A stretch of DNA of 64,000 bases from a virus. The first letter of the stretch is position 1. Every line of letters starts with the position of its first letter. This document shows, piece after piece, positions 10,823 through 28,233 of this stretch. The stretch spans positions 46,082 through 110,081 of IMG/VR virus record IMGVR_UViG_3300033233_000015; one strand, given 5' to 3'. The notes below the pieces were generated by a model, which was not told where the DNA came from, did not search any database, and saw nothing but the letters and a program-made list of their open reading frames with translations. A program made the translations under genes and the position numbers.

Positions 10823-11851
10823 ATGCGGGGCATGTACGTGCGCGACGGCTTCGAGGACGTGGCCTTCAACGGAAGGCGAGTCACGAGTCTCGGATACGGT
10901 CTCGGGTTCGATCTCAGCGACGTGGGCGACGCGGTTATGGATGTTGTTGACGCCGCCATCGATGCGGTCGCGTACTTTGGAAAGCACCTCGACTCGGTTG
11001 CCGAAATTGCGATCGTGGCCGGTCTCGTGATGGCGACTGGCGGCGGGGTCTTGCTCGCGAAGGGCGCGGTAGGTGCCGCAACACTCATCGCGGTGGGTGG
11101 TGCGCTGAGTTCTGCGGGGTACGCGATCGATCGGTTGGAAAAACAGTACGGACCGCAAATCAAGGCCGCGATCGATTGGGCTCAGACGGGAACTCACTCC
11201 GCGACCGACGCGCTCCGCAAAGCGATGCACGACATGCCTCCGAAGGAGCAGGCCGATCTCATCGCGTCGCAGGACTACCGTATCGCGATCAATCTGCTCA
11301 ACGACTACGGGGCTCACCCCGAACGCACTGCGGGAATGCCTGAGCCGACGTTTCGCGATCCGGATGTTGATGTGGCTGCGATCTTGAAGAAGGTCAGCGC
11401 GAACGAGCTGACGGGACGCGAAGCGTACGAAGCGTTCGCGAACAGCGGTCGCATGGCCGAGAGCGCGATCGAGCGTGCGAAGTGGGAGAACAGCCTTCGC
11501 TATTCACCGATCGGGGCGCTCATCCTCGCTGGCATCGCCGAGAACAGCAAGTCGGCTGTCGTGATGCTCGGCACGGCTCGAGATTTGGAGAACGCGGCAG
11601 CCGCACATCCATCCAACGAGTCGGAGCTCCTCGGTCTCGCGAAGACGTTGAGGGAACGTGCGAAGCAGACGGCTCGCGCTGCCGCTGGAGCGGGGGTCGC
11701 GAGCGCGGGGGTCGCGAGCACGAGCGGCAAGAAAAAACTCGTCGTCGGCACCGTCGTCGCGGGCGGCGCTGCGGCGGGCGGGCTCGCGTGGTACGCGAGC
11801 AAGCACGGCCTCACGATGATGCAGGCGCTTCGTCGGATCTTCGGTCATTGA
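10823..11851 (+). CDS. putative virion membrane protein (internal and C-terminal TM)
   Basis: AGGAG SD; N-terminal GRRVTSLGYGLG motif; hydrophobic segments. Confidence 0.75.
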   Translation: MRGMYVRDGFEDVAFNGRRVTSLGYGLGFDLSDVGDAVMDVVDAAIDAVAYFGKHLDSVAEIAIVAGLVMATGGGVLLAKGAVGAATLIAVGGALSSAGYAIDRLEKQYGPQIKAAIDWAQTGTHSATDALRKAMHDMPPKEQADLIASQDYRIAINLLNDYGAHPERTAGMPEPTFRDPDVDVAAILKKVSANELTGREAYEAFANSGRMAESAIERAKWENSLRYSPIGALILAGIAENSKSAVVMLGTARDLENAAAAHPSNESELLGLAKTLRERAKQTARAAAGAGVASAGVASTSGKKKLVVGTVVAGGAAAGGLAWYASKHGLTMMQALRRIFGH

Positions 11852-11876
11852 CGAGCGAGCGACTCACGCTTAGGCT
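11848..11876 (+). promoter_or_regulatory. sigma70-like promoter, probably leaderless for 11883
   Basis: TTGACG-N17-TAGGCT, 6 nt before GTG 11883. Confidence 0.6.
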
Positions 11877-11882
11877 ACTTCC

Positions 11883-12071
11883 GTGATCCCGAAGCTCACC
11901 GAGGTTTTCCACTTCAAGGCCACTCCCGAGCAGGCTCGCGCGATCAAGAGGATGGCCAAAGCCCGACGCATGCATGTCGGAGCGTGGCTCCGATCGGTCG
12001 TCGTCGCTGCGTCTGCTCCTCTCTCAAGCAACGGGTCGATGAATCTCGACACGCCGAGGCTACCGAAATGA
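11883..12071 (+). CDS. ribbon-helix-helix-like regulator
   Basis: VFHFKATPEQARAIKRMAKARRMHVGAWLR. Confidence 0.55.
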   Translation: MIPKLTEVFHFKATPEQARAIKRMAKARRMHVGAWLRSVVVAASAPLSSNGSMNLDTPRLPK

Positions 12072-12550: not shown

Positions 12551-12903
12551 ACATCGAGCTCGATCCGCAAGCCAACATCATCATCGCCCGCCTCATCGAC
12601 ATGCAGCGCACCGAGAGCGGCATCATCATGCCCGACACGCAGATCAAGGGCGTCACCGTCTTCGCGCTCGTCGAGCGAATCGGTCCCGACGTCAAGCGAT
12701 GCAAGCCCGGCGATGTCATCCTTCCTCGAGCGGTGGAGCACTGCTGGCTTCGGGGTGGTACATTCCATCGCGCGCTCATTCAGGACGAGCACGTCGTCGC
12801 GATCGTCAAGAACGGCTTCAACCGCGAGCACATGAAGTTCGTGGACGAGCGCATCGCGGCGGGCGACGACGGCGGTGGTAAAGAAAAGAGGCTGGTCACG
12901 TGA
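12547..12903 (+). CDS. groES: GroES (Cpn10)-like co-chaperonin
   Basis: LDP...RTESGIIMPD mobile loop, VERIGPDV..CKPGDVI. Confidence 0.75.
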   Translation: MNIELDPQANIIIARLIDMQRTESGIIMPDTQIKGVTVFALVERIGPDVKRCKPGDVILPRAVEHCWLRGGTFHRALIQDEHVVAIVKNGFNREHMKFVDERIAAGDDGGGKEKRLVT

Positions 12904-14042
12904 AACTCGAAGCGGTGTACGAACGTCGCAGAGAAGTTCGCCGGCCACGCCGCGCAGCGTCGCCGTGCGGATGTGGATGCGCAGCGTCACCGCGAGGAGT
13001 CGTTCCGCCGCCAGCGCCGCGCGCGCGCGAGGTCCGACGAGAGGTTCGCGATTTCGGTTCGATGCTCGACGCGCTCGAGGCTGCGAAGGCTCAGGGCGCG
13101 ACACATGCGCTGCAGAGCGGATACGCCGTCTACTTCCCGATCTCCGCTGCGGCGGGGTACGACCACTGCGCCATCTATCAGAGACTCGGCAAGTGGCACA
13201 TCGAAGCGCCAGGCAAGAAGAGCAGAGGTCCGCTTCCCACGCTTGCGGTCCCGATCGGTGATCTGATCTTCTCTCTTCAAGGGCGCGGCGCGAGAGAGGC
13301 CGATCCGCCAGGCGGTCCAGTTCTGCGAGTCGGATCGACCATCGTTCTGCCCGCTGGACATCGCGTCGGTATGGGTCGTCTTCGCAAGGACACGACGGTT
13401 CGGATCGATCGAATCGAGAACGACTCCGAGGGAGCCCCGATCTACGGGTTCTCTTGGATGGATGAGAGAGGCAAGGCCCGAAGCGGGTGGCTCTCGCAGA
13501 GCGAAGCGCTTCAATACGTTCGACGTGGCGGTTTCTCTCACGAGTCACCCTCGCGCGAGATCGAGTCGGAGTGCCGTCCGTACCTGAAGATCGAGCGCGA
13601 CGAGAAGCGTTTCCGTGCGTGCCAAGCGATCGCCGATCGCATCGGGCCAATCGACTCGACCGAGAAGTCGTACGAGGTGCTTCGGCAGGCGGTTGGTCAC
13701 GAACTCGCCGAGCGGTTCGGTGTGATGACGATGGACACGCACTTGAAGCTCCGCGACATCGCCGAGACCGGGGCAGGCGAGACGGACGCCGTGATGGCGC
13801 CGAAGGTGCCGACGCTTCAGGCCGCTCTCCTCTCGTCGCCGACGTACGCGATCATCTATCACGTGCATCCCGCCGCGAGCGAGAGGCCGAGCGATGCGGA
13901 TGTCGAAGTGACCAAGGACTTCGCGAAAGCGTTCGCGGAGGTCGGTGTGCCGCTACTCGATCACATCATCATCTCGACGGGATCGAAGAAGGGGCACTAC
14001 TCGTTCGCCGAGTCGAAACCGAAGACGCTTCAAGTGGAGTGA
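12900..14042 (+). CDS. Multidomain protein with C-terminal RadC-like JAB domain
   Basis: ERFGV...IIYHVHP...PSDAD...LLDHIII. Confidence 0.8.
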   Translation: MKLEAVYERRREVRRPRRAASPCGCGCAASPRGVVPPPAPRAREVRREVRDFGSMLDALEAAKAQGATHALQSGYAVYFPISAAAGYDHCAIYQRLGKWHIEAPGKKSRGPLPTLAVPIGDLIFSLQGRGAREADPPGGPVLRVGSTIVLPAGHRVGMGRLRKDTTVRIDRIENDSEGAPIYGFSWMDERGKARSGWLSQSEALQYVRRGGFSHESPSREIESECRPYLKIERDEKRFRACQAIADRIGPIDSTEKSYEVLRQAVGHELAERFGVMTMDTHLKLRDIAETGAGETDAVMAPKVPTLQAALLSSPTYAIIYHVHPAASERPSDADVEVTKDFAKAFAEVGVPLLDHIIISTGSKKGHYSFAESKPKTLQVE

Positions 14043-14045
14043 TCG

Positions 14046-14492: not shown

Positions 14493-14830
14493 TGCCTCCC
14501 ACGACCGCGACGCTCGTCTATAGAGTGACGCCGACGAACGTCCTTCCGACCGCGACGATGCAGGCGAAGATGGCGGCAGTTCCGCTCTACGCAAGCGCGC
14601 TGACCGACCCGGTGCTCAAGACGCTGTTCGACTGCACGGTGGCATCCGATGCGACCGCGCCCGCAGGACCGAACATCGATCGCACCATCGTGCTCAACTT
14701 GGGCGCGGGGTTCTTCTCTCTCTTCCCGACCGCTGCCGATTGGGCAACGGCGTTCAACGATCTCTTCGGCAGAACGCTCGCTCTTCTTCTTCCGGCGCAG
14801 GTGAAGAGCCTTCCGGTGGTGTTCGCATGA
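14492..14830 (+). CDS. hypothetical protein
   Basis: TGATG coupling. Confidence 0.65.
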   Translation: MPPTTATLVYRVTPTNVLPTATMQAKMAAVPLYASALTDPVLKTLFDCTVASDATAPAGPNIDRTIVLNLGAGFFSLFPTAADWATAFNDLFGRTLALLLPAQVKSLPVVFA

Positions 14831-16263
14831 GCGGTGACGGCAGACGTGACGGCAGACGACACCGCGGCGTGGCCGCTCCTCCCGAGCACGAAATCGTCGA
14901 CGAACTCTCCGAAGAGATCGAGGACAACGGAGAGACGCGCGCGGTCGCAAACGAGGAGACCGTCAAGCGCGAAGGTGCGCTCAACGCGGAAGCGGTGCAA
15001 AGCAACCGCCGGCGGAAGTCCATCGAGAACAAGAAGAGGGGTGGTGCCGGGACAGTTCCCTGGAACGAGTCTCGAGCGCCGCTTCTCTACGACGACATCA
15101 TCGCGCTCTACCCGCCGAACACGTTGATGATCTACGTCGAGCGTCTCTCGGGCACGCTCGCGAGCTGGTACTTGTACGGACAGCCGAAGAGCGGTCACGA
15201 GCTCTATCAGGCGATCCTCAAGCAGTGTCACGGGCGAAAAGAGGAGACCGAGTACCGCGTCGTCTTCCGCGATGCGCAGCGGAAGTTCGAACGAGGCATC
15301 GGTCGGCTCACGCTTCCGTCGACGCTCGACGACGCTACGCTCCCCGTGCAGCCTCAGGGAATGGGGATGCCGAACGGCGTGCCGCCCGCGAACTACGGGC
15401 AGCAAAACGGCTACGGTCAGCCGAACGGATATCCGCCGCAACAGCCGCCGCAGAACAACGGCTACCCGCAACAGCAGCAGCCTCCGCCGCAGAACTATCC
15501 GCAGCAAGCACCGCAGTTCGCGCAGCAACCGATGCAGCCGATGCAGCCGCAGTACGCGGGTCACTCACCGCAGGAGACGCAGGTGCTCCTCGACATGCAG
15601 CGGCAGATCGCCGAGATGAGCGGGCGAGTGACCGCGTACCTGACGCAGCAACCGATGCAGACGCCGCCTCAGCAAGATCAGCATCGACCGATCTACGATC
15701 GGCCGTCGCCGCGCTACAACGGAAGCGTCGTACCGCCCGCTCCTCAGCCTCCGCCGCAACAGGCCATGCAGCCTCCGCCGGGGATGTACCACGTCCCCGG
15801 ATTCGGCTTCGTCCCCACCGCGAAGCTCATGGAAGCGATGGGAGTCGTCGGGCCTCAGCAGCAGCAGGCTCCAGCAGCTCCTCCGCAGCCCCCGAGGAAC
15901 GCTGCCGACGAGTTCCGAAGCGCGATCGGTCTCATGACCACGGTCGCCGATGCCGCGCGCACCGTGCAGTCGATTTTCCCTAGCGCAGCAAGCGCGCCCG
16001 CGGCGCCGGCCGCTAGAGAAGACGACGATCTGCCGATGAAGACGATCAAGTACGGCGACTTCAACACGGTCGTGAACAAGGAAGACGGCAGCCTGCGGAT
16101 TCCAGACACGATCGCCGCGAACGGCGAGAAGATCCTCGGTTGGATCGAGAAGCAGCGCAAAGACATCCAAGCCCAACGCCAGCAACCTCAGTCGATACCC
16201 GAGCAACCGCCTCAGAACGGCATGATGCCGATGCCGCAGTATCCCGGAGAACAGCAGCGATGA
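14827..16263 (+). CDS. Gln/Pro-rich low-complexity protein
   Basis: ATGA coupling; long QP/NGY-rich centre. Confidence 0.75.
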   Translation: MSGDGRRDGRRHRGVAAPPEHEIVDELSEEIEDNGETRAVANEETVKREGALNAEAVQSNRRRKSIENKKRGGAGTVPWNESRAPLLYDDIIALYPPNTLMIYVERLSGTLASWYLYGQPKSGHELYQAILKQCHGRKEETEYRVVFRDAQRKFERGIGRLTLPSTLDDATLPVQPQGMGMPNGVPPANYGQQNGYGQPNGYPPQQPPQNNGYPQQQQPPPQNYPQQAPQFAQQPMQPMQPQYAGHSPQETQVLLDMQRQIAEMSGRVTAYLTQQPMQTPPQQDQHRPIYDRPSPRYNGSVVPPAPQPPPQQAMQPPPGMYHVPGFGFVPTAKLMEAMGVVGPQQQQAPAAPPQPPRNAADEFRSAIGLMTTVADAARTVQSIFPSAASAPAAPAAREDDDLPMKTIKYGDFNTVVNKEDGSLRIPDTIAANGEKILGWIEKQRKDIQAQRQQPQSIPEQPPQNGMMPMPQYPGEQQR

Positions 16264-16746: not shown

Positions 16747-17304
16747 ATGCGGGTCTACAACGTGCAGCCCGGCGACAGCCCGGCGTCGATCGCAATTTCG
16801 TACGCTGGATGCCCAAAATGTTCGATCGATCTCGTCTCCGTGAATCCGCACAAGCCGACCGTTCGCTATCCGAACGGCTACGTGACGTTCAAGGATCTGC
16901 GCGCGGGTGAGCGGCTCTGGCTCCCCGACAAGTGGTTCAGCGGCGCGCTCGATGATTTGCCGAGCGAATATTTCGCATCGCTGCCGAGCGCCGACGGATT
17001 TCTGGCCGATCCACGGCCGAACCTGCCGCCGCCGCAAAAGGGGCCGTCCGGTCCTCCGGACTATCCGAAACCTCCTCCTCTGATCATCTCGCCCGTGGCA
17101 CCGTATCGGCCGCCGCCCTTGGCGCCGGTGCCCGATCCGTCCAAGCAGAAGCCGCCGAACGCTGGTGGCGGAGGATCGGCGGGCGGCGGAACCCCAGGAG
17201 AGACGACGCCGTCGGAGTCGGGCATGAGCACCGGAGCGAAGGTCGCCATCGGATTCGCAGTCGCCGCAGCAGGAGGGTTCGCACTATGGACTTTGGCGAA
17301 GTAA
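16747..17304 (+). CDS. LysM-domain tail-anchored protein
   Basis: YNVQPGDSPASIA...LVSVNP...LRAGERLWLP; Pro-rich linker; C-terminal TM. Confidence 0.8.
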   Translation: MRVYNVQPGDSPASIAISYAGCPKCSIDLVSVNPHKPTVRYPNGYVTFKDLRAGERLWLPDKWFSGALDDLPSEYFASLPSADGFLADPRPNLPPPQKGPSGPPDYPKPPPLIISPVAPYRPPPLAPVPDPSKQKPPNAGGGGSAGGGTPGETTPSESGMSTGAKVAIGFAVAAAGGFALWTLAK

Positions 17305-17504
17305 GCATCCACGGTCGTTCGGTCGCCGAGCTCGGAATGCTCGGTGCTGACGTCAACGTCACGAACTGCCCCGCCTGCTCGTGCAGCGGGTATTTTTGGG
17401 CGGGCATGTTCCTCGGAGCGGGCACGCTCTACATCACGACCGCAGTGCTCGGCGCTGCTGCGATCTTCGGATCGACGGTCGCGTACAAGCGGATGAATCC
17501 GTGA
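17286..17504 (+). CDS. small membrane protein
   Basis: GGAGG SD; HGRSVAELGMLG motif; TM. Confidence 0.6.
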   Translation: MDFGEVSIHGRSVAELGMLGADVNVTNCPACSCSGYFWAGMFLGAGTLYITTAVLGAAAIFGSTVAYKRMNP

Positions 17505-17511
17505 GCTCGTG

Positions 17512-18153
17512 ATGGACTTCGGGAGCGAACTCTCTTTCGGTGGTCGTTCCGTCGAAGGATTCGGGCTCGGCACGTTTCTTCGCCAGCCGTCCGTCGAGGA
17601 TCTTCGCAACCTCATCAACGCCAAAGACTACGAGCTGAATCAAATCTACAAGCACTACATGGCCTTCTGGCAGATGTGGGAGACCGTAGATTTGCCGGCC
17701 AAGCTCGATTGGGCCAACGACTGGAACGCGCTTCTCGCAAGATACAAGAAGGCAAAGGAGACCGCGCAGTGGGCGTTCGACAAGGCGGCGGGGCAGCCGT
17801 GGCCGGACTCGGTCATCCTGGCTCCCGACGAATGGAACACCGTGCTTCGAGCGCTGAGAAAAAATTGGGACGGCAAGACGGGGGGTACGCTGGAGAAGGG
17901 TGATGAGGCCGATCTCGAATTTCGCCTTTCGGCTGCGAGCCACAAGAGCAGCGACTTCTCGCACGAGCCGCAACCGACGGGCGACGTCGATCTCGAGATT
18001 TTCAAAGCCGCCGACAAGGCGACCAAGGGGATCGAAACCGTCGCGGGTAAAATCGCCAACTACGTCCCGATCGGACTCGCCATCGGGGCAGGCATCTTGG
18101 TGCTCGTAGCGGGGGCCTACGTCATCGCTCTCTTGCCCAAGTCGAGATCATGA
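17512..18153 (+). CDS. tail-anchored membrane protein
   Basis: GGRSVEGFGLG motif; C-terminal TM. Confidence 0.75.
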   Translation: MDFGSELSFGGRSVEGFGLGTFLRQPSVEDLRNLINAKDYELNQIYKHYMAFWQMWETVDLPAKLDWANDWNALLARYKKAKETAQWAFDKAAGQPWPDSVILAPDEWNTVLRALRKNWDGKTGGTLEKGDEADLEFRLSAASHKSSDFSHEPQPTGDVDLEIFKAADKATKGIETVAGKIANYVPIGLAIGAGILVLVAGAYVIALLPKSRS

Positions 18154-18497
18154 AGTCCAGCACGAAGACCCTCATCGCGGCCGGCGCGGGCGCGGCGATC
18201 GTCGGATTGATCGCGGTGATCGCTTCTCCGAAGTCGAACGCCAGCTCGGGACAGGTTCAAGTCCTGCACGGTCACCGATACCGACTCTCGCACGTGTACC
18301 CATCGGGAACGCAGCCTCCGAGCGTCGCGGTGATGCAGCAGAAGATCGATGTTCTGATGCCGAACACGTGGAGAGTTGTCTCCTCGTCGTTCGACATAGA
18401 CAGATCGGTCGGGACGTTCATCGCCGACATGATCGGTCAGACGCACTACGAAATGACGGTCGGCGGATCGATCGAAGACATGGGGCCGACGCCATGA
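18150..18497 (+). CDS. N-terminally anchored membrane protein
   Basis: N-terminal TM, coupling. Confidence 0.7.
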   Translation: MKSSTKTLIAAGAGAAIVGLIAVIASPKSNASSGQVQVLHGHRYRLSHVYPSGTQPPSVAVMQQKIDVLMPNTWRVVSSSFDIDRSVGTFIADMIGQTHYEMTVGGSIEDMGPTP

Positions 18498-19198
18498 CCA
18501 TTTTTTTCGGAGGTAGACCCGTACGCGGCTTCGGTCTCGAGGATTCGGGACCGACACCGATCCCTCTCTGCGGTTTTCCGAACACGCCCGACTGCGACAG
18601 GTTCACGCTCAAGACGGGCCACCGCTACGTCGCTGGAGGCATCTTCCTCTATCGCTACAAGCCCGACTTCCCGATGGCGGAGGAAGAGAAGCAGGATTTC
18701 ATCTCGAGCTTCGGCGGCGCGATGATGGTCGATTGGGTGAAAGCGCTTGGGCCGCCGAACGATCTCGGTGCAGCAGCGCCTCAGGGATTTCAGTGGGCTC
18801 TTTCGGTGATCTTCCAGGGCTACGCCAAGCGCGATCAGATCCTCATCAACGGACAGACGGAGACGTGGCTCGTTGCTGCGCAGGTGCCCGACAACGTCAC
18901 GCCTCCGCCCGAACCTCCTGCGCCGACACCGCCGAGCGTCACGGAGCACCGAGGCGTGAAGATCATCTACCAGCTGGTGCCTGGTGGCGGATGCGTCGCT
19001 GCGTTCGTTACGCAGCAGGGGAGCTTCGACGTGCAAGACGTCGACTGCGACGGTGCCATCGCGAAGGCGAAGGCGAAACTCGACTCGATGATGGGCGGCG
19101 GCGCGAGCCCCTCTTCCTCGAGCCACACCGGCATCATCGTCGGCATCGCGGCGGGCGTCGTCCTCGCGGGAGCTGCCCTGATCGCAACATCGAGATGA
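18494..19198 (+). CDS. tail-anchored membrane protein
   Basis: GGRPVRGFGL motif; C-terminal TM. Confidence 0.75.
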   Translation: MTIFFGGRPVRGFGLEDSGPTPIPLCGFPNTPDCDRFTLKTGHRYVAGGIFLYRYKPDFPMAEEEKQDFISSFGGAMMVDWVKALGPPNDLGAAAPQGFQWALSVIFQGYAKRDQILINGQTETWLVAAQVPDNVTPPPEPPAPTPPSVTEHRGVKIIYQLVPGGGCVAAFVTQQGSFDVQDVDCDGAIAKAKAKLDSMMGGGASPSSSSHTGIIVGIAAGVVLAGAALIATSR

Positions 19199-19872
19199 AG
19201 CGTGCATGGATCGTCGCCGGCGGAGCGGGAATCGCCATCGCGACGGTAGCGATCGTGAGGTCTCGACACGCGCGCGCGCAGTCGAGACCAGACTTCAATC
19301 GCTCCGTGCTTGCTCGAGCCGAAAGCGATCTCGGTGTCATCGAGACGTCACCCAACAGCGGGCCACGCGTGGACGAGATGCTGAGATCGGTCGGGATCAA
19401 CGTACCCGCCAACTGGTGCGCGGCGGCCGTGTCGACATGGGTTCGGGAAGCAGCGCGCGAGCTCGGCGTTGGCGTGCCCATCGCGGGGTCTGCGAGCGTG
19501 CTTTCGATCGTTCAAGAGATGCGCGATCCGAACAACCCAAAGGTCGGATGGATCGAAACAACAGACCTGCGCGCGCATCCTGAGCGCGTGCGGCCAGGGA
19601 TGATCGTGGCGTGGACGCGCGGTCTGCCTGGCAGCGGCTTGGGACACATCGGTATCGTCGAGAGCAGCGACAGCCGAGGCGCGTTCGTACACATCGACGG
19701 CAACGCGGGCGCTAACGCTGATCGCGTCGCCAAAGGCACAAGCGATCTCTCGAGCGCGTCGCTGATCGGGATGGGGTTCTTCCGCGACATCGCTGTCGGA
19801 CTCGGCGACTACAACTTCGCGCTCGGCTACTACAACGATCCGCCGGGGGCTCTCCTTTTTCCGCTATCCTGA
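19195..19872 (+). CDS. CHAP-domain peptidoglycan hydrolase with N-terminal TM
   Basis: NSGPRVD...NWCAAAVS...GHIGIVE...IDGN. Confidence 0.85.
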   Translation: MKRAWIVAGGAGIAIATVAIVRSRHARAQSRPDFNRSVLARAESDLGVIETSPNSGPRVDEMLRSVGINVPANWCAAAVSTWVREAARELGVGVPIAGSASVLSIVQEMRDPNNPKVGWIETTDLRAHPERVRPGMIVAWTRGLPGSGLGHIGIVESSDSRGAFVHIDGNAGANADRVAKGTSDLSSASLIGMGFFRDIAVGLGDYNFALGYYNDPPGALLFPLS

Positions 19873-19877
19873 AGATC

Positions 19878-20537
19878 ATGATCGAGAAGCCCGTACCTGG
19901 CGTCCTCGCGAGACCTCACCCCGGCGGCAAACGCGGAGCGATGATCTCGCTCGACGAGACCGCGAAAGGCGCGTGGCGCGATCGGATGTCGCCGCGGCTT
20001 CGCGCGTGGGCTACGCAGCAGCTCGACAAGTGTGGCCGTCCCACGGGGAAACGCGCACGCGTGCAGTGCCTCCTCGACGCCTTCCGCAAGAAGGTGCCCT
20101 ATCTGGCCGATCCGAAGTGGGGTGAGTTCATCGCGAGCTCCGACCAGCTTCTCTGCGTGGACGAAGACAAGAACCTCTGCTTCATCGGCGCCGACTGCGA
20201 AGAGCACGCTCGAGCGATGGCGGCCCTCTGTCTCTGCATCGGGATTGACGCGATGATCGTGGGCCAGTCGTCACGAGATCCCGCCGACGTCCCCACGCAC
20301 GTCTACTTCGCGTTCAAAGACGATCTCGATTCGTGGGTCCGAGGCGACTCGACGACGACGTATCCGGTGGGCAGGGTCGCTCCGTACCTTCGCGAGTGGT
20401 GGGTCGATCCGTCCGAGGGTGTCGCTGAGGCGGGGCTCGGCGACATCGTCGTGATGGGCGCCACGGATGGTTTGCAGGATGCACCTAAAAATGGTGCGGT
20501 CTACACGGGTCGATACGCGGGGCTGTTCTCGAAATGA
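19878..20537 (+). CDS. Transglutaminase-like cysteine protease (candidate maturation protease)
   Basis: GADCEEHA...THVY...WVRGDST, Cys-His-Asp in transglutaminase order. Confidence 0.7.
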   Translation: MIEKPVPGVLARPHPGGKRGAMISLDETAKGAWRDRMSPRLRAWATQQLDKCGRPTGKRARVQCLLDAFRKKVPYLADPKWGEFIASSDQLLCVDEDKNLCFIGADCEEHARAMAALCLCIGIDAMIVGQSSRDPADVPTHVYFAFKDDLDSWVRGDSTTTYPVGRVAPYLREWWVDPSEGVAEAGLGDIVVMGATDGLQDAPKNGAVYTGRYAGLFSK

Positions 20538-22387: not shown

Positions 22388-22443
22388 TGGAGAGAGCCTG
22401 CGGCTGACCGACTGAAACGGCAGGCTCGGAAAGAAAGACGACC

Positions 22444-23694
22444 ATGGAAGCTCAAGTGAAGAAGTCGATGACGAAAGCTCGGTTCGGCCAGGACCGCGAT
22501 CGGGTGAAGCGCGTTCCCTTCGGTCTCGGCGACGCGCCAAGCTCCGACGCGCTCAACAAGACGCTCCGTTGCTCCTTCGGCAACGTGCCCGTCATCGAGG
22601 AGGTCGTTTGGACGATTCCTCTCCCGCTCTCCGAAGCGGAAGCGCAGAGCACGTTCGGCGACATCATCAACGTGCTCACCTCGCAGGCGAACGTGCCGGG
22701 TGTCGCGTCGATCGACTCGACGTTCCTGCTCAACGGCATCCTGCAGACGGACCTCTACACGCAGGGCGTCGGCGTGCACGTCTTCTGCGAGCCGATGCAG
22801 CTCGCGACGATCGGCAACGCTTGGACGTCGCCGCCCACGGCCGGCGCCGTTCCGCCGCCGTCCCCCGACGTCTTCACGCTGAACGATGTCGCCGGCGGCG
22901 CGCTCGGTCTCGCGCAAGGCACCACGATGGTGCCCGCCGCCTTCGATTGGGGCGGCGAGGTGTGGCGCGCGGGCTGGAACTTCATCAACGCGTACCAGTT
23001 CCAGTGGAAGACGAGCCAGCGCGAGCTCGTCTTGAACGAGCTGGCGGCCGACGTCTCGTACTTCGGCAGCTTCGCGGACGCGGAGGCGGCGGGCACCAGC
23101 GAGTTCCCGATCGCGGAGCTCGTCGCGCGCACGAACGCCGTCTACCGCTCGAAGGCGTCGGGGTTCACCTTCCTCCCCGTGAACTTCCGCCGCGTCGGAA
23201 GCGTCACGGTGGCGGCGGCCAACGTCGGCATCTTCCACCCGACGCGCGACTTCGACCTCGCGCCCGTCACCTGGGGCGGTCTCCGCTGGCAGGGGTACGG
23301 CTGCAAGGGTCAGATGTACCGGATGATCGAGAACCCGTGCTTCCTCGAGCGCGCGATTCCGATCGGCATGCAGTTCATCGTGCAGGATCCGGTGCACCAG
23401 GCCGCGATGCTCGAAGCGCTCACGATGGACAACTCGCTGCTCGGGACGAACATCAGCCCCGACACGAACATCAGCTGCGCGAACACGACGACGGGCGCGA
23501 ACGTCATGCTCGAGCAGACGCTCGACTCGCCGCCCGTGAACACGCCGCAGCAGGTGACGCTCTGCCGTCAGGTCTTCAAGGGCGGCATCCTCAAGATCGG
23601 CATCAAGCTCAAGGGGTGGGAGTTCCCCGCTCCGTGGCGTCTCTGGTGCCAGCAGAACGCGCCGCAGCTCGTCTCCTGCCCCGCGCAGAGCTGA
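22444..23694 (+). CDS. Putative major capsid protein
   Basis: 416 aa, beta-rich, very strong codon bias, follows the core-like gene, followed by a strong hairpin; fold not verified. Confidence 0.6.
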   Translation: MEAQVKKSMTKARFGQDRDRVKRVPFGLGDAPSSDALNKTLRCSFGNVPVIEEVVWTIPLPLSEAEAQSTFGDIINVLTSQANVPGVASIDSTFLLNGILQTDLYTQGVGVHVFCEPMQLATIGNAWTSPPTAGAVPPPSPDVFTLNDVAGGALGLAQGTTMVPAAFDWGGEVWRAGWNFINAYQFQWKTSQRELVLNELAADVSYFGSFADAEAAGTSEFPIAELVARTNAVYRSKASGFTFLPVNFRRVGSVTVAAANVGIFHPTRDFDLAPVTWGGLRWQGYGCKGQMYRMIENPCFLERAIPIGMQFIVQDPVHQAAMLEALTMDNSLLGTNISPDTNISCANTTTGANVMLEQTLDSPPVNTPQQVTLCRQVFKGGILKIGIKLKGWEFPAPWRLWCQQNAPQLVSCPAQS

Positions 23695-23715
23695 GCCAAG
23701 CAGCGTGACTAGACC

Positions 23716-23751
23716 GCGACGGGCGGCGCGGATTTCTGCGCCGCCCGTTGC
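23716..23751 (+). terminator. GC-rich hairpin after the capsid candidate (attenuator/terminator)
   Basis: GCGACGGGCGGCGCGG-ATTTC-TGCGCCGCCCGTTGC, weak U tail. Confidence 0.65.
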
Positions 23752-23768
23752 CGTTTCAGGAGAGCCCG

Positions 23769-24455
23769 ATGCTGCCGCGTGACCTCCAGATAAAGAATCT
23801 CGCTTGGATCTCCCCCAAGATCGCCTACGGTCTCGTGGCGCAGGTTCCCCGTGTGCCGTTCGTCGGTCCCATCACGACGAACCCCGGCGTTCCGTCGCCC
23901 GTCGTACCGATTCAGTTCACCGCGAACTGGCTCGCTCCGCCCGCGCTGCCTCCGGGCAATCCGCCGAACAACATCGGCATCAACCCGATCATCCAAGGCA
24001 CGCTTCAGAACAACGTGACGCAGGACACGCTGATCGAGCGCATCGTGTACTCGCTCTGGCAACCGAACGCGTTCTCGACGCCGCCGTCTCCGTTCCAGAC
24101 GCTATACCTGTCGCAGCTCAAGAGCTCCACGGGCGTCGATGTCCTGCTCGATGTCTACGGAAGCCCGAAGTACCGCGTGTGCGACTTCTTGCCGCTCGAG
24201 AACCTCGCTGACGTGCTCGCCGTCACGTGGCCCAACGGATGGCCGCTGCGCAAGCAGGAGAACGTCAAAGTGCAGGCCGTGCTCACCAGACCGCAGCCCG
24301 GAACGGTCGAAGCCCCCGTCGGCATCCCGTACTTCGTGAACATGGCGCTCGTCGGATGGCAGTTCGTCGGGAAGGAGATCGACGACATGTCCGACGACGA
24401 GGCGCGTCGGCGTCTCAAAGCGATGGGGATCGAAGTCCCTGAGGTGCCGCGATGA
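23769..24455 (+). CDS. Putative capsid protein, paralog A
   Basis: AGGAG SD; alignable end to end with 24452..25075. Confidence 0.65.
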   Translation: MLPRDLQIKNLAWISPKIAYGLVAQVPRVPFVGPITTNPGVPSPVVPIQFTANWLAPPALPPGNPPNNIGINPIIQGTLQNNVTQDTLIERIVYSLWQPNAFSTPPSPFQTLYLSQLKSSTGVDVLLDVYGSPKYRVCDFLPLENLADVLAVTWPNGWPLRKQENVKVQAVLTRPQPGTVEAPVGIPYFVNMALVGWQFVGKEIDDMSDDEARRRLKAMGIEVPEVPR

Positions 24456-25075
24456 TCGACCGCGACTACAACGTGAAGAACTTGGCGCTCTACGCGCCGC
24501 GCGTCGCGTGGGCGATGATCGCGGGCATTCCGCGCGTCGCGTTCGCGGTGGACGTGCCGATTCAGTTCTCGTCGGCGACCGTCAACGCTCCCCCCGTCGT
24601 CGGGAGCTTTCAGAACTCGCTCACGCAGGACACCGTCATCGAACGTGTCTCGTTCTCGCTCTTCCAGCAGAACACGTTTCCGGGCTCTCCCTTCCAGACG
24701 CTCTACTTCGCGATGGCGAAGGCGATCAGTGGCGTCGGCGTGCAGATGAGCGTCTACGGGGGGCCGAAGTACAACGTGAACGACACGTTCACGGCGCTAG
24801 AGAACATGGCCGACGTGCTCGCGATCACGTGGCCGAGCGGATGGCCGCTCTACAAGGGCAGCAACGTCAAGGTGACGGCGGCGCTCCTCCAGACGCCGTT
24901 CTCGACGCCGTACGACGTGAACCTCACGTTCCTTGGCTGGCAGTTTCTCGACGCCGAGCTCGACGCGATGAGCGACTCGGAAGCTCGTCGTCGTTTGCGG
25001 GCGCTCGGACTCGAGTCACCCGATCTCGCATCGCTCATCGGATCAGGGGGCGCGACGGCGCCACACAAGGAGTGA
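24452..25075 (+). CDS. Putative capsid protein, paralog B
   Basis: Shares QNxxTQDTxIER, SPFQTLY, LENxADVLAxTWPxGWPL, GWQF, MSDxEARRRL with paralog A. Confidence 0.65.
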   Translation: MIDRDYNVKNLALYAPRVAWAMIAGIPRVAFAVDVPIQFSSATVNAPPVVGSFQNSLTQDTVIERVSFSLFQQNTFPGSPFQTLYFAMAKAISGVGVQMSVYGGPKYNVNDTFTALENMADVLAITWPSGWPLYKGSNVKVTAALLQTPFSTPYDVNLTFLGWQFLDAELDAMSDSEARRRLRALGLESPDLASLIGSGGATAPHKE

Positions 25076-25078
25076 GTC

Positions 25079-25561
25079 ATGGCATTTCGAATCGGTAGAA
25101 AGCACGCGCAGCACACGTACCCGGAGCCGAACAGGGGCAGCCAGGCGTTGTCGCTGGCACATGGGTGGGCGGACAACCCGACCGACGTAGCGATCGGGGT
25201 GGGAAATACCACCGTCGCGAGCGTGCCCGTAACCCCCAAAGTCACCGGCAAGTTTCGTGTGACGGCGACGTTCACGCCGACGAACACGGACACGGGCGTG
25301 CCGCACAACATCGTGCCGCTTCTGCGCCACGCGGGAGCACCGCCCGTCACCGACTACACGCCGGGGACGCCTACGCGCCTCGAAGTGGCGGCCGCGGGCA
25401 ACGAGGCCATCGCGACGGGCGCGTTCACGTTCGAGTACACCGTCGCGTTTCCGGTAGGTCAACCGGTCACGCTTCTCCTCACGCTCTCGGACGCGGCCTC
25501 GCCTGGGGTGACGGTCTTCGCGCACTCCGCGCAGCTCCTCGTCGAAGAAGTGGGGAACTGA
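25079..25561 (+). CDS. beta-rich putative virion protein
   Basis: AAGGAG SD; N-terminal GRKHAQHTYP motif. Confidence 0.65.
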   Translation: MAFRIGRKHAQHTYPEPNRGSQALSLAHGWADNPTDVAIGVGNTTVASVPVTPKVTGKFRVTATFTPTNTDTGVPHNIVPLLRHAGAPPVTDYTPGTPTRLEVAAAGNEAIATGAFTFEYTVAFPVGQPVTLLLTLSDAASPGVTVFAHSAQLLVEEVGN

Positions 25562-25574
25562 GGTCCACGCTCGC

Positions 25575-26453
25575 ATGAACAACGTCATTCGCCTTCAAGA
25601 CAAGCGCGGCGGTGTGGGGACGAACCTCCCCGGCGCGGCGGTGTGTCGAGGGCGATACGAAATCGTGTCCGCGTCGCTCGATCCCGATCTCGCGTTCATC
25701 GGAAGCGATCCGTACAACACGAGCGACTTCACGGGCGTCATCGTTCCTGCGGTGCCGTCGTCCTTTCTTGGCACCGGTCAGCGCTATCTCTTCATGCTCG
25801 CGCGCGCGCAGTTCAGTTCGGGACAAGAGGGGGTTCATCTAGTTGGTGTCCGCCTCTACGCTGATCTCGTCGCGCGCGTTCCGCAAGAGGACGCTCCCAC
25901 GCTCGTCTTTCACAAGGAGATCACGCACCCGATGTTCCATCCACCCGATGGCAACATCTCGTTCCATGTGATGGTCCTCGACAAGACGTGGCGCGACAGA
26001 AGGAACGCGTTCAACGCAGACACGAGGACGTTCCAAGACAGCTTCTCTCCATCGCTGCTCTTTCAGACGCCCGAAGCTGCGGGCTACACGCCGCCGAACG
26101 GCGGACGAGCCTGGGGAACTCCGCTCGACGCCTCACTCGGCAACATCCACGAGCTCCGATGGCCGTGGCGAGACAGCAAGATCGAGCACACCCTGCGCGT
26201 GCCCATCCCCATCCCGAGCGACATCGCCATCTTCGCGTCGGTCAGGCAGAACGATCCCGCTATGAACCCGAGCGCGGCCGGGTTGTCCGCGCAGCAGTTC
26301 GCGGCGCTCGATCCTGAGGAGCAGTTCCTCACTTCGTTCTTTACGGTCGCGCAGTACGGGCGCATCTCCGCATCGCTCGTCTTCGAGGGGGATTCGTTTT
26401 TGTACGGCAGCGAGGGATGCAAGTCCGAGGACTCGCGGGAGAAGTGCCGATGA
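25575..26453 (+). CDS. putative virion protein
   Basis: Long ORF in the structural operon. Confidence 0.65.
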   Translation: MNNVIRLQDKRGGVGTNLPGAAVCRGRYEIVSASLDPDLAFIGSDPYNTSDFTGVIVPAVPSSFLGTGQRYLFMLARAQFSSGQEGVHLVGVRLYADLVARVPQEDAPTLVFHKEITHPMFHPPDGNISFHVMVLDKTWRDRRNAFNADTRTFQDSFSPSLLFQTPEAAGYTPPNGGRAWGTPLDASLGNIHELRWPWRDSKIEHTLRVPIPIPSDIAIFASVRQNDPAMNPSAAGLSAQQFAALDPEEQFLTSFFTVAQYGRISASLVFEGDSFLYGSEGCKSEDSREKCR

Positions 26454-27082
26454 GGTGCCCGTACGTGCAGAACATGGTGACGGGGCAGGTCGAGAGCGAA
26501 CCTGCTGGACCCAATGATGCGGGCATCGAGCGTTCGCTCCGATGTTTCGCCGAGTACATCAACAGCATGGGGCTCGGAGACGGAGGAAACATGATTTCGT
26601 ACGGTGGACGCCCCGTAGCGGGCTTCGGTGTGCTCGACAACCTCGGCCTCTCGGGTGCCGACATCTACAACGCTCTGTCCAGCGATCAGCGGACGTGGCT
26701 CGCCTCGGCGATGCAGACGTTCGAAGGAGCTCGCAGGGACGCTGGCGCGTCGGCGTGCCCGGAGTGGCCGCAGACGTTTCAGACGGTCGCGGACTTCCAG
26801 GCAGCCGTCGCGTGCACGCAGGCGTGGATCAACGCCGGCAACCCCGGCCTTCTTCGCACCGACGGCGTCATGGACGAATCCACGCTCTGCGCGATCCAGT
26901 TCGAGGCGTACAAGATGCCCCCCTACGCGCAGAACAGATTCCCCGATCCGTCGGGCAAGTTCTGCAAGTCGATGACGACGACGGAGAAGAAGTCGAACAC
27001 CGTCTACTACGTCGCTGGCGGCGTCGCGGCGGCGCTGGCCGTCGGCGCGGCGATCGTCTACTCGAGAAAGCGAGCTGCGTGA
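26450..27082 (+). CDS. tail-anchored protein with peptidoglycan-binding-like motif
   Basis: QAWIN...LRTDGVMDESTLCAI; GGRPVAGFGV motif; C-terminal TM-RKR. Confidence 0.65.
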   Translation: MRCPYVQNMVTGQVESEPAGPNDAGIERSLRCFAEYINSMGLGDGGNMISYGGRPVAGFGVLDNLGLSGADIYNALSSDQRTWLASAMQTFEGARRDAGASACPEWPQTFQTVADFQAAVACTQAWINAGNPGLLRTDGVMDESTLCAIQFEAYKMPPYAQNRFPDPSGKFCKSMTTTEKKSNTVYYVAGGVAAALAVGAAIVYSRKRAA

Positions 27083-28233
27083 TGCTCGACTACAAGGTCC
27101 GTCATGGCGACTCGCCCGCCGCCATCGCGCGCCGCTACGGCGTGTCGGTGACCTCGCTCGTCGGGGCGAACCCGCAGAAGCACACGACCGTCGTCGCGGG
27201 TCAGCAGACGTGGCGCTCCTTGCACATCGGAGAGGTCGTGCGCGTTCCGTCGGCTCGAGTCGGGCTCGCGGGACAGACTTCGGTGGACGTCGGTGCGTCA
27301 CCCATCGGATCGAAGACGCCGACGATCACCGCGTTCATTACGAACTCGGATCAAGCAACCATCGGCGGCGACGTGCAGTTCTTCGTGGACGGGAACTTCG
27401 TTGGCGCCGCTTCGGTCATCCCTCAAGGCGGCGGCAGTTCGACCGCAAGCGTGACCCTCGCCGACGAGCTCTCGCCCGGTAACCACACGTTCGATGCCGC
27501 GTACTCGGGAGATCCTTCGAACGACGCGGGCCGAGGATCGGTGACGTTCTCGGTCGCAGGCGGCGGTGGCGGAGGCGGCGGAGGTCGCTACTCGAGCACG
27601 ATCGTCGCTGCCGCGCAGGCGCTCGACGCGCAACTCGTCGCGAAAGGCTGCTGCGGCTGCGGCGATGCGGCGTCTGCCCTCAGCGCAGTGGTCATGGCCT
27701 TCAAGAGATCGATCCTCACGAACCCCTCGCAGTGGGGCGTCCCTGGCATCGGAAACGCTGCCACCGTGACGGGCAGCACGATCGACGTCTCGAACGATCA
27801 GTGTCAGCACGCGTTCGGCAACGGCACGATCAACGATCTGCGTGCCGTGCTCGGATCGGGCATGCGGTACTCAGGCGGTCCGTGCGCGACGTGGAACGGA
27901 GCAGGTAACTGCCCGTGCACGAACACGGGCTCGAACTGCGGACAGCAGCCGCCTTCGCAGACGTTCCCGTGTCCGGCAGGAACCGTCAAAGAGGGTCAGC
28001 AGGTCGCGAACATCCTCACCGACTGCGGCGGCCCGAAGCAGCCTCCGCGCGGCTGCTCGACGAACAACCCCTGCCCGTCAGGTCAGCAGTGCCAAAGCGG
28101 CCAGTGCATCACGCCTCCGAGCTCGGGCGGAGGCGGCGGAAGCGCGGGCGCGCTTCTCGCTGGCGTCCTGCTCGTTGGCGGCGGCATCGCAGCCACCACG
28201 ATCGCCATGAAGAGAAAGAAGCGTCACCCGTGA
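27082..28233 (+). CDS. LysM + Ig-like + Cys-rich tail-anchored protein
   Basis: YKVRHGDSPAAIARRYGV (LysM); GDVQFFVDG...GNHTFDAAYSGD (Big-like); TM-KRKKR. Confidence 0.8.
   Translation: MLDYKVRHGDSPAAIARRYGVSVTSLVGANPQKHTTVVAGQQTWRSLHIGEVVRVPSARVGLAGQTSVDVGASPIGSKTPTITAFITNSDQATIGGDVQFFVDGNFVGAASVIPQGGGSSTASVTLADELSPGNHTFDAAYSGDPSNDAGRGSVTFSVAGGGGGGGGGRYSSTIVAAAQALDAQLVAKGCCGCGDAASALSAVVMAFKRSILTNPSQWGVPGIGNAATVTGSTIDVSNDQCQHAFGNGTINDLRAVLGSGMRYSGGPCATWNGAGNCPCTNTGSNCGQQPPSQTFPCPAGTVKEGQQVANILTDCGGPKQPPRGCSTNNPCPSGQQCQSGQCITPPSSGGGGGSAGALLAGVLLVGGGIAATTIAMKRKKRHP

What the first reader, a model, noticed from the sequence alone, without database searches (positions are those of the whole stretch)
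10823..27280. Shared G-R-x-V-x-G-[FL]-G / GLG-D motif in many structural proteins, next to a candidate protease
Seen in otherwise unrelated ORFs: FNGRRVTSLGYGLGFD (10823), IHGRSVAELGMLGAD (17286), FGGRSVEGFGLGTF (17512), FGGRPVRGFGLED (18494), MGLGD..YGGRPVAGFGVLD (26450), RVPFGLGDA (capsid candidate 22444), VGLGDY (19195), AGLGDI (protease 19878) and RVGLAG (27082). Most lie near N-termini or domain borders. Known: the adenovirus Cys protease cleaves (M/I/L)xGG^x and (M/I/L)xGx^G in virion precursors. Inference: a virion-maturation or targeting signal processed by the transglutaminase-like protease at 19878..20537, i.e. adenovirus-style maturation in a bacterial virus.
Basis: partly seen in the sequence, partly recalled or inferred. 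Interest (0 to 1): 0.85.

Follow-up and report, generated by a model that had tools for sequence, protein, structure and literature searches.

The report
Shared address tag on virion proteins
A group of uncultivated 110-120 kb bacterial viruses puts the same glycine-rich tag of about 20 residues at the start, or at a module border, of several membrane-anchored proteins encoded beside the capsid genes; it looks like a common assembly or processing signal, but cutting by the neighbouring protease-like enzyme is unproven.

Summary
The core observation holds; the extras do not. G-R-x-V-x-x-[FL]-G occurs five times in all six frames of the complete 110,081-bp viral genome. All five are in plus-strand genes that carry a C-terminal membrane helix. 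Four sit at the extreme N-terminus and one after a 40-residue leader.

The tag recurs in 30 related IMG/VR contigs. Five complete relatives carry 3-8 copies each, all within about 21 kb of the capsid gene. It is the only similarity I could detect between the carrier proteins.

The capsid protein's R-V-P-F-G-L-G is conserved in orthologues and lies in a disordered N-terminal arm. Its kinship to the tag is only suggestive. The G-L-G-D hits in the CHAP, LysM and enzyme genes are unsupported.

The "protease" has a transglutaminase fold with an invariant Cys-His-Asp triad. It is present in every relative with enough flank. In four relatives an intein sits exactly at the catalytic Cys.

Nothing shows cleavage. 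My best reading is a virion-targeting or docking tag, like the T4 capsid-targeting sequence, that may be clipped afterwards. The scan noted this tag before only on this same stretch.

The parts
10847..10912 (+). Divergent tag copy, residues 9-30 of the membrane protein encoded at 10823-11851
   Evidence: Regex hit and translation. Not significant with the relatives-only profile (4.4 bits). Resembles the second copy of double-tag proteins in L007/L009/L012.
17289..17348 (+). Divergent tag copy, residues 2-21 of the 72-aa tail-anchored protein encoded at 17286-17504
   Evidence: Shine-Dalgarno AGGAGG upstream. N-terminus paralogous to 17512. TM at residues 41-66.
17515..17571 (+). Tag, residues 2-20 of the tail-anchored protein encoded at 17512-18153
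   Evidence: In-frame stop five codons upstream of the Met. Relatives-only profile E 1.3e-3. C-terminal TM.
18497..18544 (+). Tag, residues 2-17 of the tail-anchored protein encoded at 18494-19198
   Evidence: Relatives-only profile 31.7 bits, E 8e-9. ATGA start/stop overlap. Same start in the public gene call P0143. C-terminal TM.
26570..26638 (+). Internal tag, residues 41-63 of the tail-anchored protein encoded at 26450-27082, after a Cys-containing leader
   Evidence: Relatives-only profile E 2e-6. Orthologues in 27 of 30 loci. Conserved upstream module in relatives.
22444..22539 (+). N-terminal arm (residues 1-32) of the major capsid candidate encoded at 22444-23694; R-V-P-F-G-L-G-D lies at 22510-22533
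   Evidence: Arm conserved in orthologues. pLDDT below 50 for residues 1-27. hhalign against the tag profile gives P 6e-4.
19878..20537 (+). Transglutaminase-fold Cys-His-Asp enzyme, the candidate protease; C107 at 20196-20198, H141 at 20298-20300, D157 at 20346-20348
   Evidence: PF01841 at 29.4 bits against a cut-off of 23. Invariant D-C, P-x-H-V and W-x-x-x-D. VIA Z 9.7-8.1 to transglutaminase-fold proteins.
12900..14042 (+). RadC-like JAB domain protein with an intact metal-binding motif; a second candidate peptidase for a Gly-Gly site
   Evidence: PF04002 E 6.7e-21. H-x-H...S-x-x-D present in the window and in orthologues.
19795..19812 (+).
   Evidence: CHAP PF05257 E 6e-5, below the cut-off. 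No orthologues in the loci. G-L-G-D is scattered genome-wide.
27232..27306 (+).
   Evidence: LysM and Big_3_5 Pfam hits. No orthologues for a conservation test. No profile hit.

Best explanation
The tag is roughly [ED]-x-[VI]-S-[FY]-G-G-R-x-V-x-G-F-[GA]-[LV]-G, followed a few residues later by Pro. I read it as a lineage-specific virion-incorporation signal: one short peptide placed at the start of otherwise unrelated, mostly tail-anchored membrane proteins. It would let them all be recognised by the same partner during particle assembly. That partner is most likely a capsid-shell or assembly protein.

The capsid protein's own disordered N-terminal arm carries a related sequence. The tag may therefore plug into the site that capsid arms use.

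Shown: the tag exists, is conserved across the lineage, is confined to the capsid-gene neighbourhood, sits at N-termini or module borders, and is shuffled between different domains.

Inferred: it binds a common partner. It may afterwards be clipped, as the T4 capsid-targeting sequence is, with the adjacent transglutaminase-fold Cys-His-Asp enzyme the leading candidate for the cut.
For: 1. Specificity. There are five hits in the whole genome, all in coding frames of membrane proteins.
2. Conservation. About 47 hits at E below 0.05 in 30 related loci plus this genome, several of them duplicate contigs; 36 distinct rows make up A3. Most start 0-8 residues after a Met. Many are forced to be N-terminal by an in-frame stop less than 25 codons upstream. 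Most carrier ORFs end in a hydrophobic stretch within about 20 residues of the C-terminus, many followed by a basic tail.
3. Distribution. Five complete relatives carry 3-8 copies each, all within about 21 kb of the capsid gene.
4. Breadth. A library-wide search of 1.84 billion representatives gives 21 hits. Nineteen are the same kind of protein and two are false positives.
5. Only link. The carriers share nothing else detectable.
6. Variable leader. What precedes the tag varies: nothing, about 12 residues, a roughly 70-residue Cys module, or a domain of about 150 residues. What follows it in the 26450 family is constant.
7. Shuffling. The tag plus a short cassette is recombined with different N- and C-terminal domains in L014/L019/L020/L022.
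8. Fused form. One 793-aa ORF in L008/L023 carries three copies at module borders.
9. Portable capsid arm. In L015 and L022 a small second protein carries a copy of that genome's capsid arm, 65-69% identical over 26 residues.
10. Precedent. [quoted passage not shown]
Against: - No binding partner has been identified.
- No isolate, virion proteome or structure exists, so even virion membership of these proteins is inferred from gene position.
- The capsid-arm link is weak (P 6e-4, probability 28%). The R-V-P-F in the arm is also kept in the small capsid paralogue, so it may reflect capsid paralogy instead.
- Very basic tails after the C-terminal helix, together with LysM, PG-binding, Ig-like and Cys-rich domains in neighbouring or related proteins, suggest an N-out topology. 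In that case a cytoplasmic docking role would need rethinking.
Confidence: 0.45

Rival explanations
1. The tag is chiefly a cleavage signal. The transglutaminase-fold cysteine enzyme at 19878-20537 acts as the maturation protease and removes leaders from the capsid protein and membrane proteins, and cuts fused precursors at module borders.
For: - Transglutaminase fold with an invariant Cys-His-Asp triad.
- The gene is present in all 25 loci with enough upstream flank, about 2 kb from the capsid gene.
- In four relatives an intein is inserted exactly before the catalytic Cys, which marks a strongly constrained site.
- The tag lies at N-termini, after variable leaders, in tandem in P0124, and three times in one ORF of L008.
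- The capsid arm is disordered.
- Precedent: LapG, a transglutaminase-like Cys-His-Asp proteinase, cuts the N-terminal part of LapA (PMC3032545). LapG matches the model at Z 6.6.
Against: - No direct evidence of cleavage exists.
- Enzyme and tag co-occur in all relatives, so there is no natural test.
- Conserved length is 17-20 residues, against the 4-5 typical of maturation sites.
- Leaders before the tag are often only 1-8 residues long.
- The same fold occurs in cross-linking transglutaminases, PNGase and the phage pseudomurein endoisopeptidases PeiP/PeiW at similar Z, so the enzyme could be a cell-wall or other enzyme.
- The distant relatives L029 and L030 keep the enzyme, but the profile finds no tag there.
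Confidence: 0.25
2. The tag is a small structural or functional element of the proteins themselves, for example a beta-hairpin used for oligomerisation or for contact with membrane or cell wall during entry. It would be inherited and shuffled as a cassette, with no common recognition partner and no processing.
For: - Hydrophobic positions alternate around Gly turns in the alignment.
- The tag travels with an adjacent Cys/Pro cassette in one clade.
- Arg is replaceable in the 26450 family, while G-G and G-F-[AG]-L are kept.
Against: - The position is strikingly constant, at the very start of proteins of quite different size and content.
- It is restricted to the capsid neighbourhood.
- The capsid arm is copied onto a second protein, which points to a shared reader.
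Confidence: 0.15
3. The tag is a non-canonical export or membrane-insertion signal for proteins whose bulk lies outside the cytoplasmic membrane. Alternatively, it is a Gly-Gly site for the RadC-like JAB peptidase at 12900-14042.
For: - Several carriers have strongly basic tails after the C-terminal helix.
- Neighbouring or fused proteins have LysM, PG_binding_1, Ig-like and Cys-rich parts but no signal peptide.
- The JAB motif is intact in the window and in relatives.
Against: - The tag has no hydrophobic core, and no Sec, Tat, lipoprotein or prepilin model matches.
- It is internal in the most conserved family.
- A related sequence sits on the capsid protein, which is not exported.
- RadC-like JAB genes usually accompany DNA-metabolism or anti-defence genes (my own knowledge).
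Confidence: 0.08
4. Chance resemblance in a Gly/Arg-rich, high-GC genome.
For: - G-L-G and G-L-G-D-type strings are common in this genome.
- Two of the five window copies, and the capsid arm, fail the relatives-only profile.
Against: - Three window copies are found by a profile that never saw them, at E 8e-9 to 1e-3, with clean reversed and shuffled controls.
- Dozens of copies occur at the same position in relatives.
Confidence: 0.01

Closest known systems
Capsid-targeting sequence (CTS) of T4 internal proteins
   Same: A short conserved N-terminal peptide is the only feature shared by otherwise diverse virion proteins. It directs them into the assembling particle (PMC3012670). From my own knowledge, it is then removed by the prohead protease.
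   Different: - T4 is a tailed phage with an HK97-fold capsid, a scaffold core and a serine-type prohead protease.
- Here the carriers are membrane-anchored, the tag is about twice as long and Gly-rich, and it can be internal.
- No HK97, portal or terminase signal was found.
- Neither targeting nor cleavage has been shown here.
Adenovirus (adenain), ASFV and poxvirus maturation at Gly-rich sites
   Same: Several virion precursors share small-residue sites cut by a virus-encoded cysteine protease (my own knowledge). The capsid candidate here may have a jelly-roll fold, as in that virus realm, but the match is weak (Z 5-6.4).
   Different: - Those proteases are clan CE, with His...Cys order. This enzyme has a transglutaminase fold with Cys-His-Asp order.
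- Their sites are 4-5 residues long.
- The (M/I/L)-X-G-G rule is not met at the tag's G-G.
LapG and other bacterial transglutaminase-like cysteine proteinases (BTLCP)
   Same: A Cys-His-Asp transglutaminase-fold enzyme that acts as a site-specific protease on the N-terminal part of a membrane-associated substrate (PMC3032545). The structural match to LapG has Z 6.6.
   Different: - LapG is a periplasmic, c-di-GMP-regulated cellular enzyme with one adhesin substrate.
- The viral protein matches PF01841, not the BTLCP family, and has no signal peptide.
Conserved N-terminal anchor peptides of spikes and fibres (adenovirus fibre tail on penton base; tailspike head-binding domains)
   Same: A constant N-terminal docking element is joined to interchangeable C-terminal domains, with recombination at the boundary (my own knowledge). 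Compare the shuffling seen.
   Different: Those anchors belong to one or two external proteins per virion. Here 3-8 membrane-anchored proteins per genome carry the tag, and binding has not been shown.

Membership tests
Transglutaminase-like superfamily (Pfam PF01841), for gene 19878-20537 | Sequence match above the family's curated cut-off | tested here: met
   29.4 bits against a cut-off of 23, E 1.1e-6. Many homologues carry PF01841 in the precomputed annotation.
Transglutaminase-like superfamily (Pfam PF01841), for gene 19878-20537 | Catalytic Cys, His and Asp, in that order | tested here: met
   C107, H141 and D157 are invariant in 16 aligned orthologues and kept in the distant L029/L030. 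Coordinates were checked.
Transglutaminase-like superfamily (Pfam PF01841), for gene 19878-20537 | Transglutaminase/papain-like core fold | tested here: met
   AF2 core pLDDT mostly 74-94. VIA Z values: 9.7 (3kd4), 9.6 (factor XIII), 8.9 (3isr), 8.8 (PNGase), 8.7 (TG2).
Transglutaminase-like superfamily (Pfam PF01841), for gene 19878-20537 | Peptidase activity, as opposed to cross-linking, deamidation or cell-wall isopeptidase activity | not testable with these tools
   All of these activities appear among the structural matches at similar Z.
Adenain-type (clan CE) virion maturation system | Protease with the clan CE arrangement, catalytic His before Cys | tested here: not met
   The order here is Cys107-His141-Asp157, and the family match is PF01841.
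Adenain-type (clan CE) virion maturation system | Substrate consensus (M/I/L)-X-G-G|X or (M/I/L)-X-G-X|G | tested here: inconclusive
   At the tag's G-G, P4 is Ser and P3 is Phe/Tyr, so the first form is not met. V-x-G-F|G fits the second form only if Val is allowed at P4, and the G is missing in the R-P-V-S-F-G-V-G variants.
T4-type capsid-targeting sequence | Short conserved N-terminal peptide as the only similarity among diverse particle proteins | tested here: met
T4-type capsid-targeting sequence | Sufficient to direct a protein into the particle, and removed by the maturation protease | not testable with these tools
   Needs an isolate or a heterologous assembly system.
Classical signal peptides (Sec, Tat, lipoprotein, prepilin) | Hydrophobic core after a basic n-region, or twin-Arg, lipobox or G|F-T-L-I-E signatures | tested here: not met
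   The alignment shows no hydrophobic core and a single Arg. No NCBIfam or Pfam signal model matches the N-termini.
Internal-membrane icosahedral viruses with jelly-roll capsid proteins (PRD1/P23-77-like), as context for 'structural proteins' | Vertical jelly-roll major capsid protein | tested here: inconclusive
   The AF2 model is weak (pLDDT 57.6). VIA Z is 5-6.4 to many jelly rolls, including HCIV-1, P23-77 VP16/VP17, SPV1 and PRD1 P3, which is not above background. Foldseek gives nothing at E below 0.001.
Internal-membrane icosahedral viruses with jelly-roll capsid proteins (PRD1/P23-77-like), as context for 'structural proteins' | FtsK/HerA- or A32-type packaging ATPase | tested here: inconclusive
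   No PF01580 or PF04665 match in the genome. A divergent ATPase could be missed.

The most novel reading that the evidence does not exclude
An abundant but undescribed lineage of 110-120 kb bacterial viruses has no recognisable terminase, portal or known capsid family. It uses one address tag of about 20 residues, shared by the capsid protein's arm and by 3-8 membrane proteins, to load the particle. A transglutaminase-fold cysteine protease then removes the tag. This would be the first maturation protease of that fold in any virus, and the first targeted precursor processing in a membrane-containing prokaryotic virus.
Probability: 0.2. Interest if true: 0.85.

Novelty: new variant of a known kind. 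Interest (0 to 1): 0.62.

Why it matters
Shared targeting or processing peptides are how complex virions such as T4, phiKZ-like phages, adenovirus and poxviruses sort many proteins into one particle. No such code is known for membrane-containing viruses of bacteria.

This tag marks a whole set of candidate virion membrane proteins in a lineage that is common in soil and peat metagenomes. The enzyme alone has at least 248 clusters at 90% identity, yet the lineage is invisible to Pfam, PHROGs and NCBIfam.

The tag gives a direct experimental handle: one peptide, one candidate enzyme and one capsid protein. If it works as a portable tag, it could also be used to load cargo into such particles.

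Tried and rejected
- Complex prediction of the enzyme (A2) with capsid residues 1-45 (A1): ipSAE 0.02, verdict "no answer". I do not use it either way.
- blastn of 19800-27300 against the phage collection: no match.
- Pfam, PHROGs and NCBIfam on the tag carriers, capsid candidates and neighbours: no family. The only hits were weak sub-threshold matches of the C-terminal helix plus basic tail to sortase-type sorting domains.
- PDB sequence search with the enzyme: nothing.
- Foldseek with the capsid model: only weak papillomavirus L1 rows with TM about 0.1.
- Terminase (PF03237, PF03354), portal (PF04860), FtsK (PF01580) and A32 (PF04665) searches of the genome: none.
- tblastn and blastp for orthologues of 10823, 17286, 17512, 18494, the CHAP gene and the second LysM gene in the relatives: none beyond the tag.
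- ESM Atlas on 17512: only unnamed clusters.
- Earlier scan notes on look-alike DNA in other genomes: none.
- Cluster look-up for names or hosts: none.
- In the library-wide search, P0126 (a propeller-type repeat with G-F-G-V-G-D) and P0135 (a repeat protein) are false positives.
- I considered a cross-linking (transglutaminase) role acting on the tag and set it aside, because the tag has no conserved Gln or Lys.
- I considered a fusion-peptide role and set it aside, because 3-8 proteins per genome carry the tag and it keeps Arg and Pro.

Full report
**Context**

The window is the last 64 kb of a single 110,081-bp IMG/VR virus record. CheckV rates it 100% complete. GC content is 62-67%. Nearly all genes between about 3.3 and 50.7 kb are on the plus strand.

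The part outside the window holds replication and recombination genes: helicases (one with an intein), a methylase, a PD-(D/E)XK nuclease, AAA_24, an RNA ligase and an M15 peptidase. The window also holds ParB, PAPS reductase, a Prim-Pol and an IS1595-type transposase.

No terminase, portal, FtsK-type or A32-type packaging gene was detected with Pfam models. The region has no DNA match in the phage collection.

**The motif in the window**

The pattern G-R-x-V-x-x-[FL]-G occurs exactly five times in all six reading frames of the whole genome. Residue shuffles of the same translations give 0.69 +/- 0.80, with a maximum of 4 in 200.

All five hits lie in plus-strand ORFs of the 10.8-27.1 kb block.
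- Four are at the extreme N-terminus.
  - Genes 17512 and 10823 have in-frame stops a few codons upstream.
  - Gene 18494 starts in an ATGA overlap with the stop of the upstream gene.
  - Genes 17286 and 10823 have Shine-Dalgarno sequences.
- The fifth is at residues 41-63 of the gene starting at 26450. That start is also an ATGA overlap and is the start used by the public gene call.

BLAST similarity among the five proteins is limited to the tag. Each has a hydrophobic stretch at its C-terminal end, and 10823 has further ones.

**Independent test**

I built a profile from 31 copies in related contigs only and searched it against all ORFs of this genome.
- It finds 18494 (31.7 bits, E 8e-9), 26450 (24.1 bits, E 2e-6) and 17512 (15.2 bits, E 1.3e-3).
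- Reversed sequences reach at most 5.6 bits. Twenty shuffled copies of the ORF set reach 14.8 bits once and otherwise at most 8.7.
- Genes 10823 and 17286 do not pass. They are divergent variants.
  - Gene 17286 shares its first four residues and G-R-S-V-E with its neighbour 17512.
  - Gene 10823 resembles the second copy in double-tag proteins of L007, L009 and L012.

**Relatives**

The capsid candidate (22444-23694) retrieved 30 IMG/VR loci at 44-69% identity. Gene order around it is conserved: an N-terminal LysM-like protein that has no Pfam hit, the transglutaminase-like gene, an Arg-rich membrane protein, the capsid candidate, a small capsid paralogue, the 25575 protein and the 26450 family.

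A two-round profile search gave about 47 tag hits at E below 0.05. Several come from duplicate contigs, and 36 distinct rows make up alignment A3.
- Most start 0-8 residues after a Met.
- Many are forced to be N-terminal by a stop less than 25 codons upstream.
- Most of the ORFs end in a hydrophobic stretch within about 20 residues of the C-terminus, and many have a basic tail after it.

The consensus from A3 is x-x-x-E-x-x-S-x-G-G-R-x-V-x-G-F-G-L-G-x-x-x-x-P, with one invariant Gly.

Five complete relatives of 109-120 kb carry 3-8 copies each. All but one weak match lie within about 21 kb of the capsid gene, in two clusters.

An exhaustive search of 1.84 billion representative proteins gave 21 hits at E of 1e-3 or better. 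Nineteen are the same kind of protein and two are false positives. As far as this profile can see, the tag is confined to this lineage.

**Position and modularity**

In the best-conserved carrier family (26450, present in 27 of 30 loci) the tag is not always first. Members begin in one of four ways:
- directly at the tag;
- about 12 residues before it;
- with a Cys-containing module of about 70 residues;
- in L008/L023, with further modules that include a PG_binding_1 domain and two more tag copies in one 793-aa ORF.

In another clade, the tag plus a short Cys/Pro cassette is joined to different N-terminal and C-terminal domains in different genomes. P0124 carries three copies in tandem. The tag therefore marks the start of modules and is a recombination boundary.

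**The capsid arm**

The arm reads roughly M-x-[KR]-S-I-[IV]-G-[RK]-x3-[KR]-[FYW]-G-x-[DE]-x-E-K-V-[RK]-R-[VI]-[PQ]-F-G-L-G-x-x-P in most orthologues. The distant L029 and L030 keep I-G-L-G-A.

The AF2 model is weak overall (pLDDT 57.6), and residues 1-27 are below 50, so this is a flexible arm.

A profile-profile comparison aligns the arm with the tag, with a five-residue insert. It gives P 6e-4 and probability 28%, which is suggestive only.

Two further observations point in opposite directions.
- In L015 and L022 a small second protein carries a copy of that genome's capsid arm, 65-69% identical over 26 residues. The arm therefore behaves as a portable unit.
- The small capsid paralogue keeps G-V-P-R-V-P-F, so R-V-P-F may simply reflect capsid paralogy.

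**The other listed sites**

G-L-G-D is moderately enriched (10 against 2.7 expected) but scattered over the genome, including the part outside the window that holds replication genes. In the enzyme, A-G-L-G-D-I aligns with a conserved G-D-F-V-G-M, and only G and D are kept. The CHAP-like protein and the second LysM protein have no orthologues in the loci, so their sites cannot be tested. I do not count these as motif members.

**The enzyme**

Gene 19878-20537 matches PF01841 above its cut-off. Its AF2 core is confident. The structural neighbours are all transglutaminase-fold proteins:
- a putative protease, 3kd4 (Z 9.7);
- factor XIII (Z 9.6);
- a putative Cys protease, 3isr (Z 8.9);
- PNGase and TG2/TG3;
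- the phage pseudomurein endoisopeptidases PeiP and PeiW (Z 7-8);
- LapG (Z 6.6).

C107, H141 and D157 are invariant. The gene is present in all 25 loci that have enough upstream flank. At least 248 clusters at 90% identity exist in metagenomes.

In L004, L010, L017 and L027 an intein-like insertion sits exactly before the catalytic Cys. It starts with Cys, ends with Ser-Asn, and has weak Hint and LAGLIDADG matches. The enzyme's catalytic Cys serves as the +1 residue. This marks the site as strongly constrained.

None of this tells a protease from a cross-linker or a cell-wall enzyme. A second candidate peptidase for a Gly-Gly site is the RadC-like JAB protein at 12900-14042. Its metal-binding motif is intact in the window and in relatives.

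**Interpretation**

The data fit a shared recognition tag. The closest precedent is the T4 capsid-targeting sequence. It is the only conserved feature of otherwise diverse internal proteins (PMC3012670), and from my own knowledge it is cut off after loading.

I rate the readings as follows:
- a virion-targeting or docking role, with or without later clipping: 0.45;
- an intrinsic structural element with no common reader: 0.15;
- an export signal or a JAB substrate: 0.08;
- chance: 0.01.

The adenovirus analogy holds only loosely. The enzyme belongs to a different clan, and the tag does not meet the adenain consensus at its Gly-Gly. LapG shows that a transglutaminase-like Cys-His-Asp enzyme can be a specific protease acting on the N-terminal part of a membrane-associated protein (PMC3032545).

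**What remains open**
- Whether these proteins are in the virion at all.
- Their membrane topology. The basic C-terminal tails, and the LysM, PG-binding and Ig-like neighbours, hint at N-out.
- The kind of particle. The capsid model gives only generic jelly-roll matches at Z 5-6.4.
- The host. MAG bins name Polyangiaceae and Binatia, which is weak evidence.

The scan had already noted the same tag on this same stretch in another reading (e1-5998070), but not on other DNA.

Noticed in passing
L004:6304-7932, and the orthologues in L010, L017 and L027: An intein-like insertion of about 320 aa lies in the transglutaminase-like gene, exactly before the catalytic Cys (G-G-D | C-F-P-E-G ... S-N | C-D-[ED]). 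It has weak Hint and LAGLIDADG Pfam matches. The window's own copy has no intein.
   Followed up: partly
L008:12704-15082 (identical in L023): One 793-aa open frame carries three tag copies (around aa 86, 358 and 575). They separate a His/Pro-rich stretch, a Cys module plus PG_binding_1 domain, and the 26450-type domain with its C-terminal helix. It may be a fused or polyprotein form.
   Followed up: partly
L015:2479-3309 and L022:3310-3918: A small protein upstream of the LysM gene carries a copy of that genome's capsid N-terminal arm, 65-69% identical over 26 residues. The window has no equivalent.
   Followed up: partly
window 20969-22387: A 472-aa protein with an extremely Arg-rich N-terminal half, followed by hydrophobic segments and a Pro-rich tail. 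Orthologues occur in 27 of 30 loci, directly upstream of the capsid gene. It is a candidate DNA-condensing membrane protein.
   Followed up: no
window 23748-25075: The window has two tandem paralogues of the small capsid-like protein (23769-24455 and 24452-25075). In every relative I inspected, both map to a single gene.
   Followed up: partly
window 12900-14042: A RadC-like JAB domain protein with an intact H-x-H...S-x-x-D motif, seen in 18 of the 30 loci (several others lack enough flank).
   Followed up: partly
window 14740-16263: A Pro/Gln-rich protein of about 500 aa, conserved in 21 loci. Its C-terminal segment is conserved (acidic run, then S-P-[VI]-[KR]-[IV]-[IV]). It may be a scaffold-like protein.
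   Followed up: no
whole genome G000: No terminase, portal, FtsK-type or A32-type packaging gene was found with Pfam models in a record rated 100% complete. The packaging machinery of this lineage is unknown.
   Followed up: partly
window 57932-58951 (minus strand): An IS1595-family transposase (DDE_Tnp_IS1595 plus zinc ribbon) lies inside the viral genome.
   Followed up: no
L035:1590-3902 (genome 21590-23902, minus strand): A UvrD-like helicase interrupted by an intein with an HNH endonuclease. Together with an earlier scan note of an intein in the methylase (not checked here), this suggests an intein-rich genome.
   Followed up: no
L031, L032: Capsid homologues lie on MAG contigs binned as Candidatus Binatia and Polyangiaceae. 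ESM Atlas neighbours of 17512 also list Myxococcota. This is a weak host hint.
   Followed up: no
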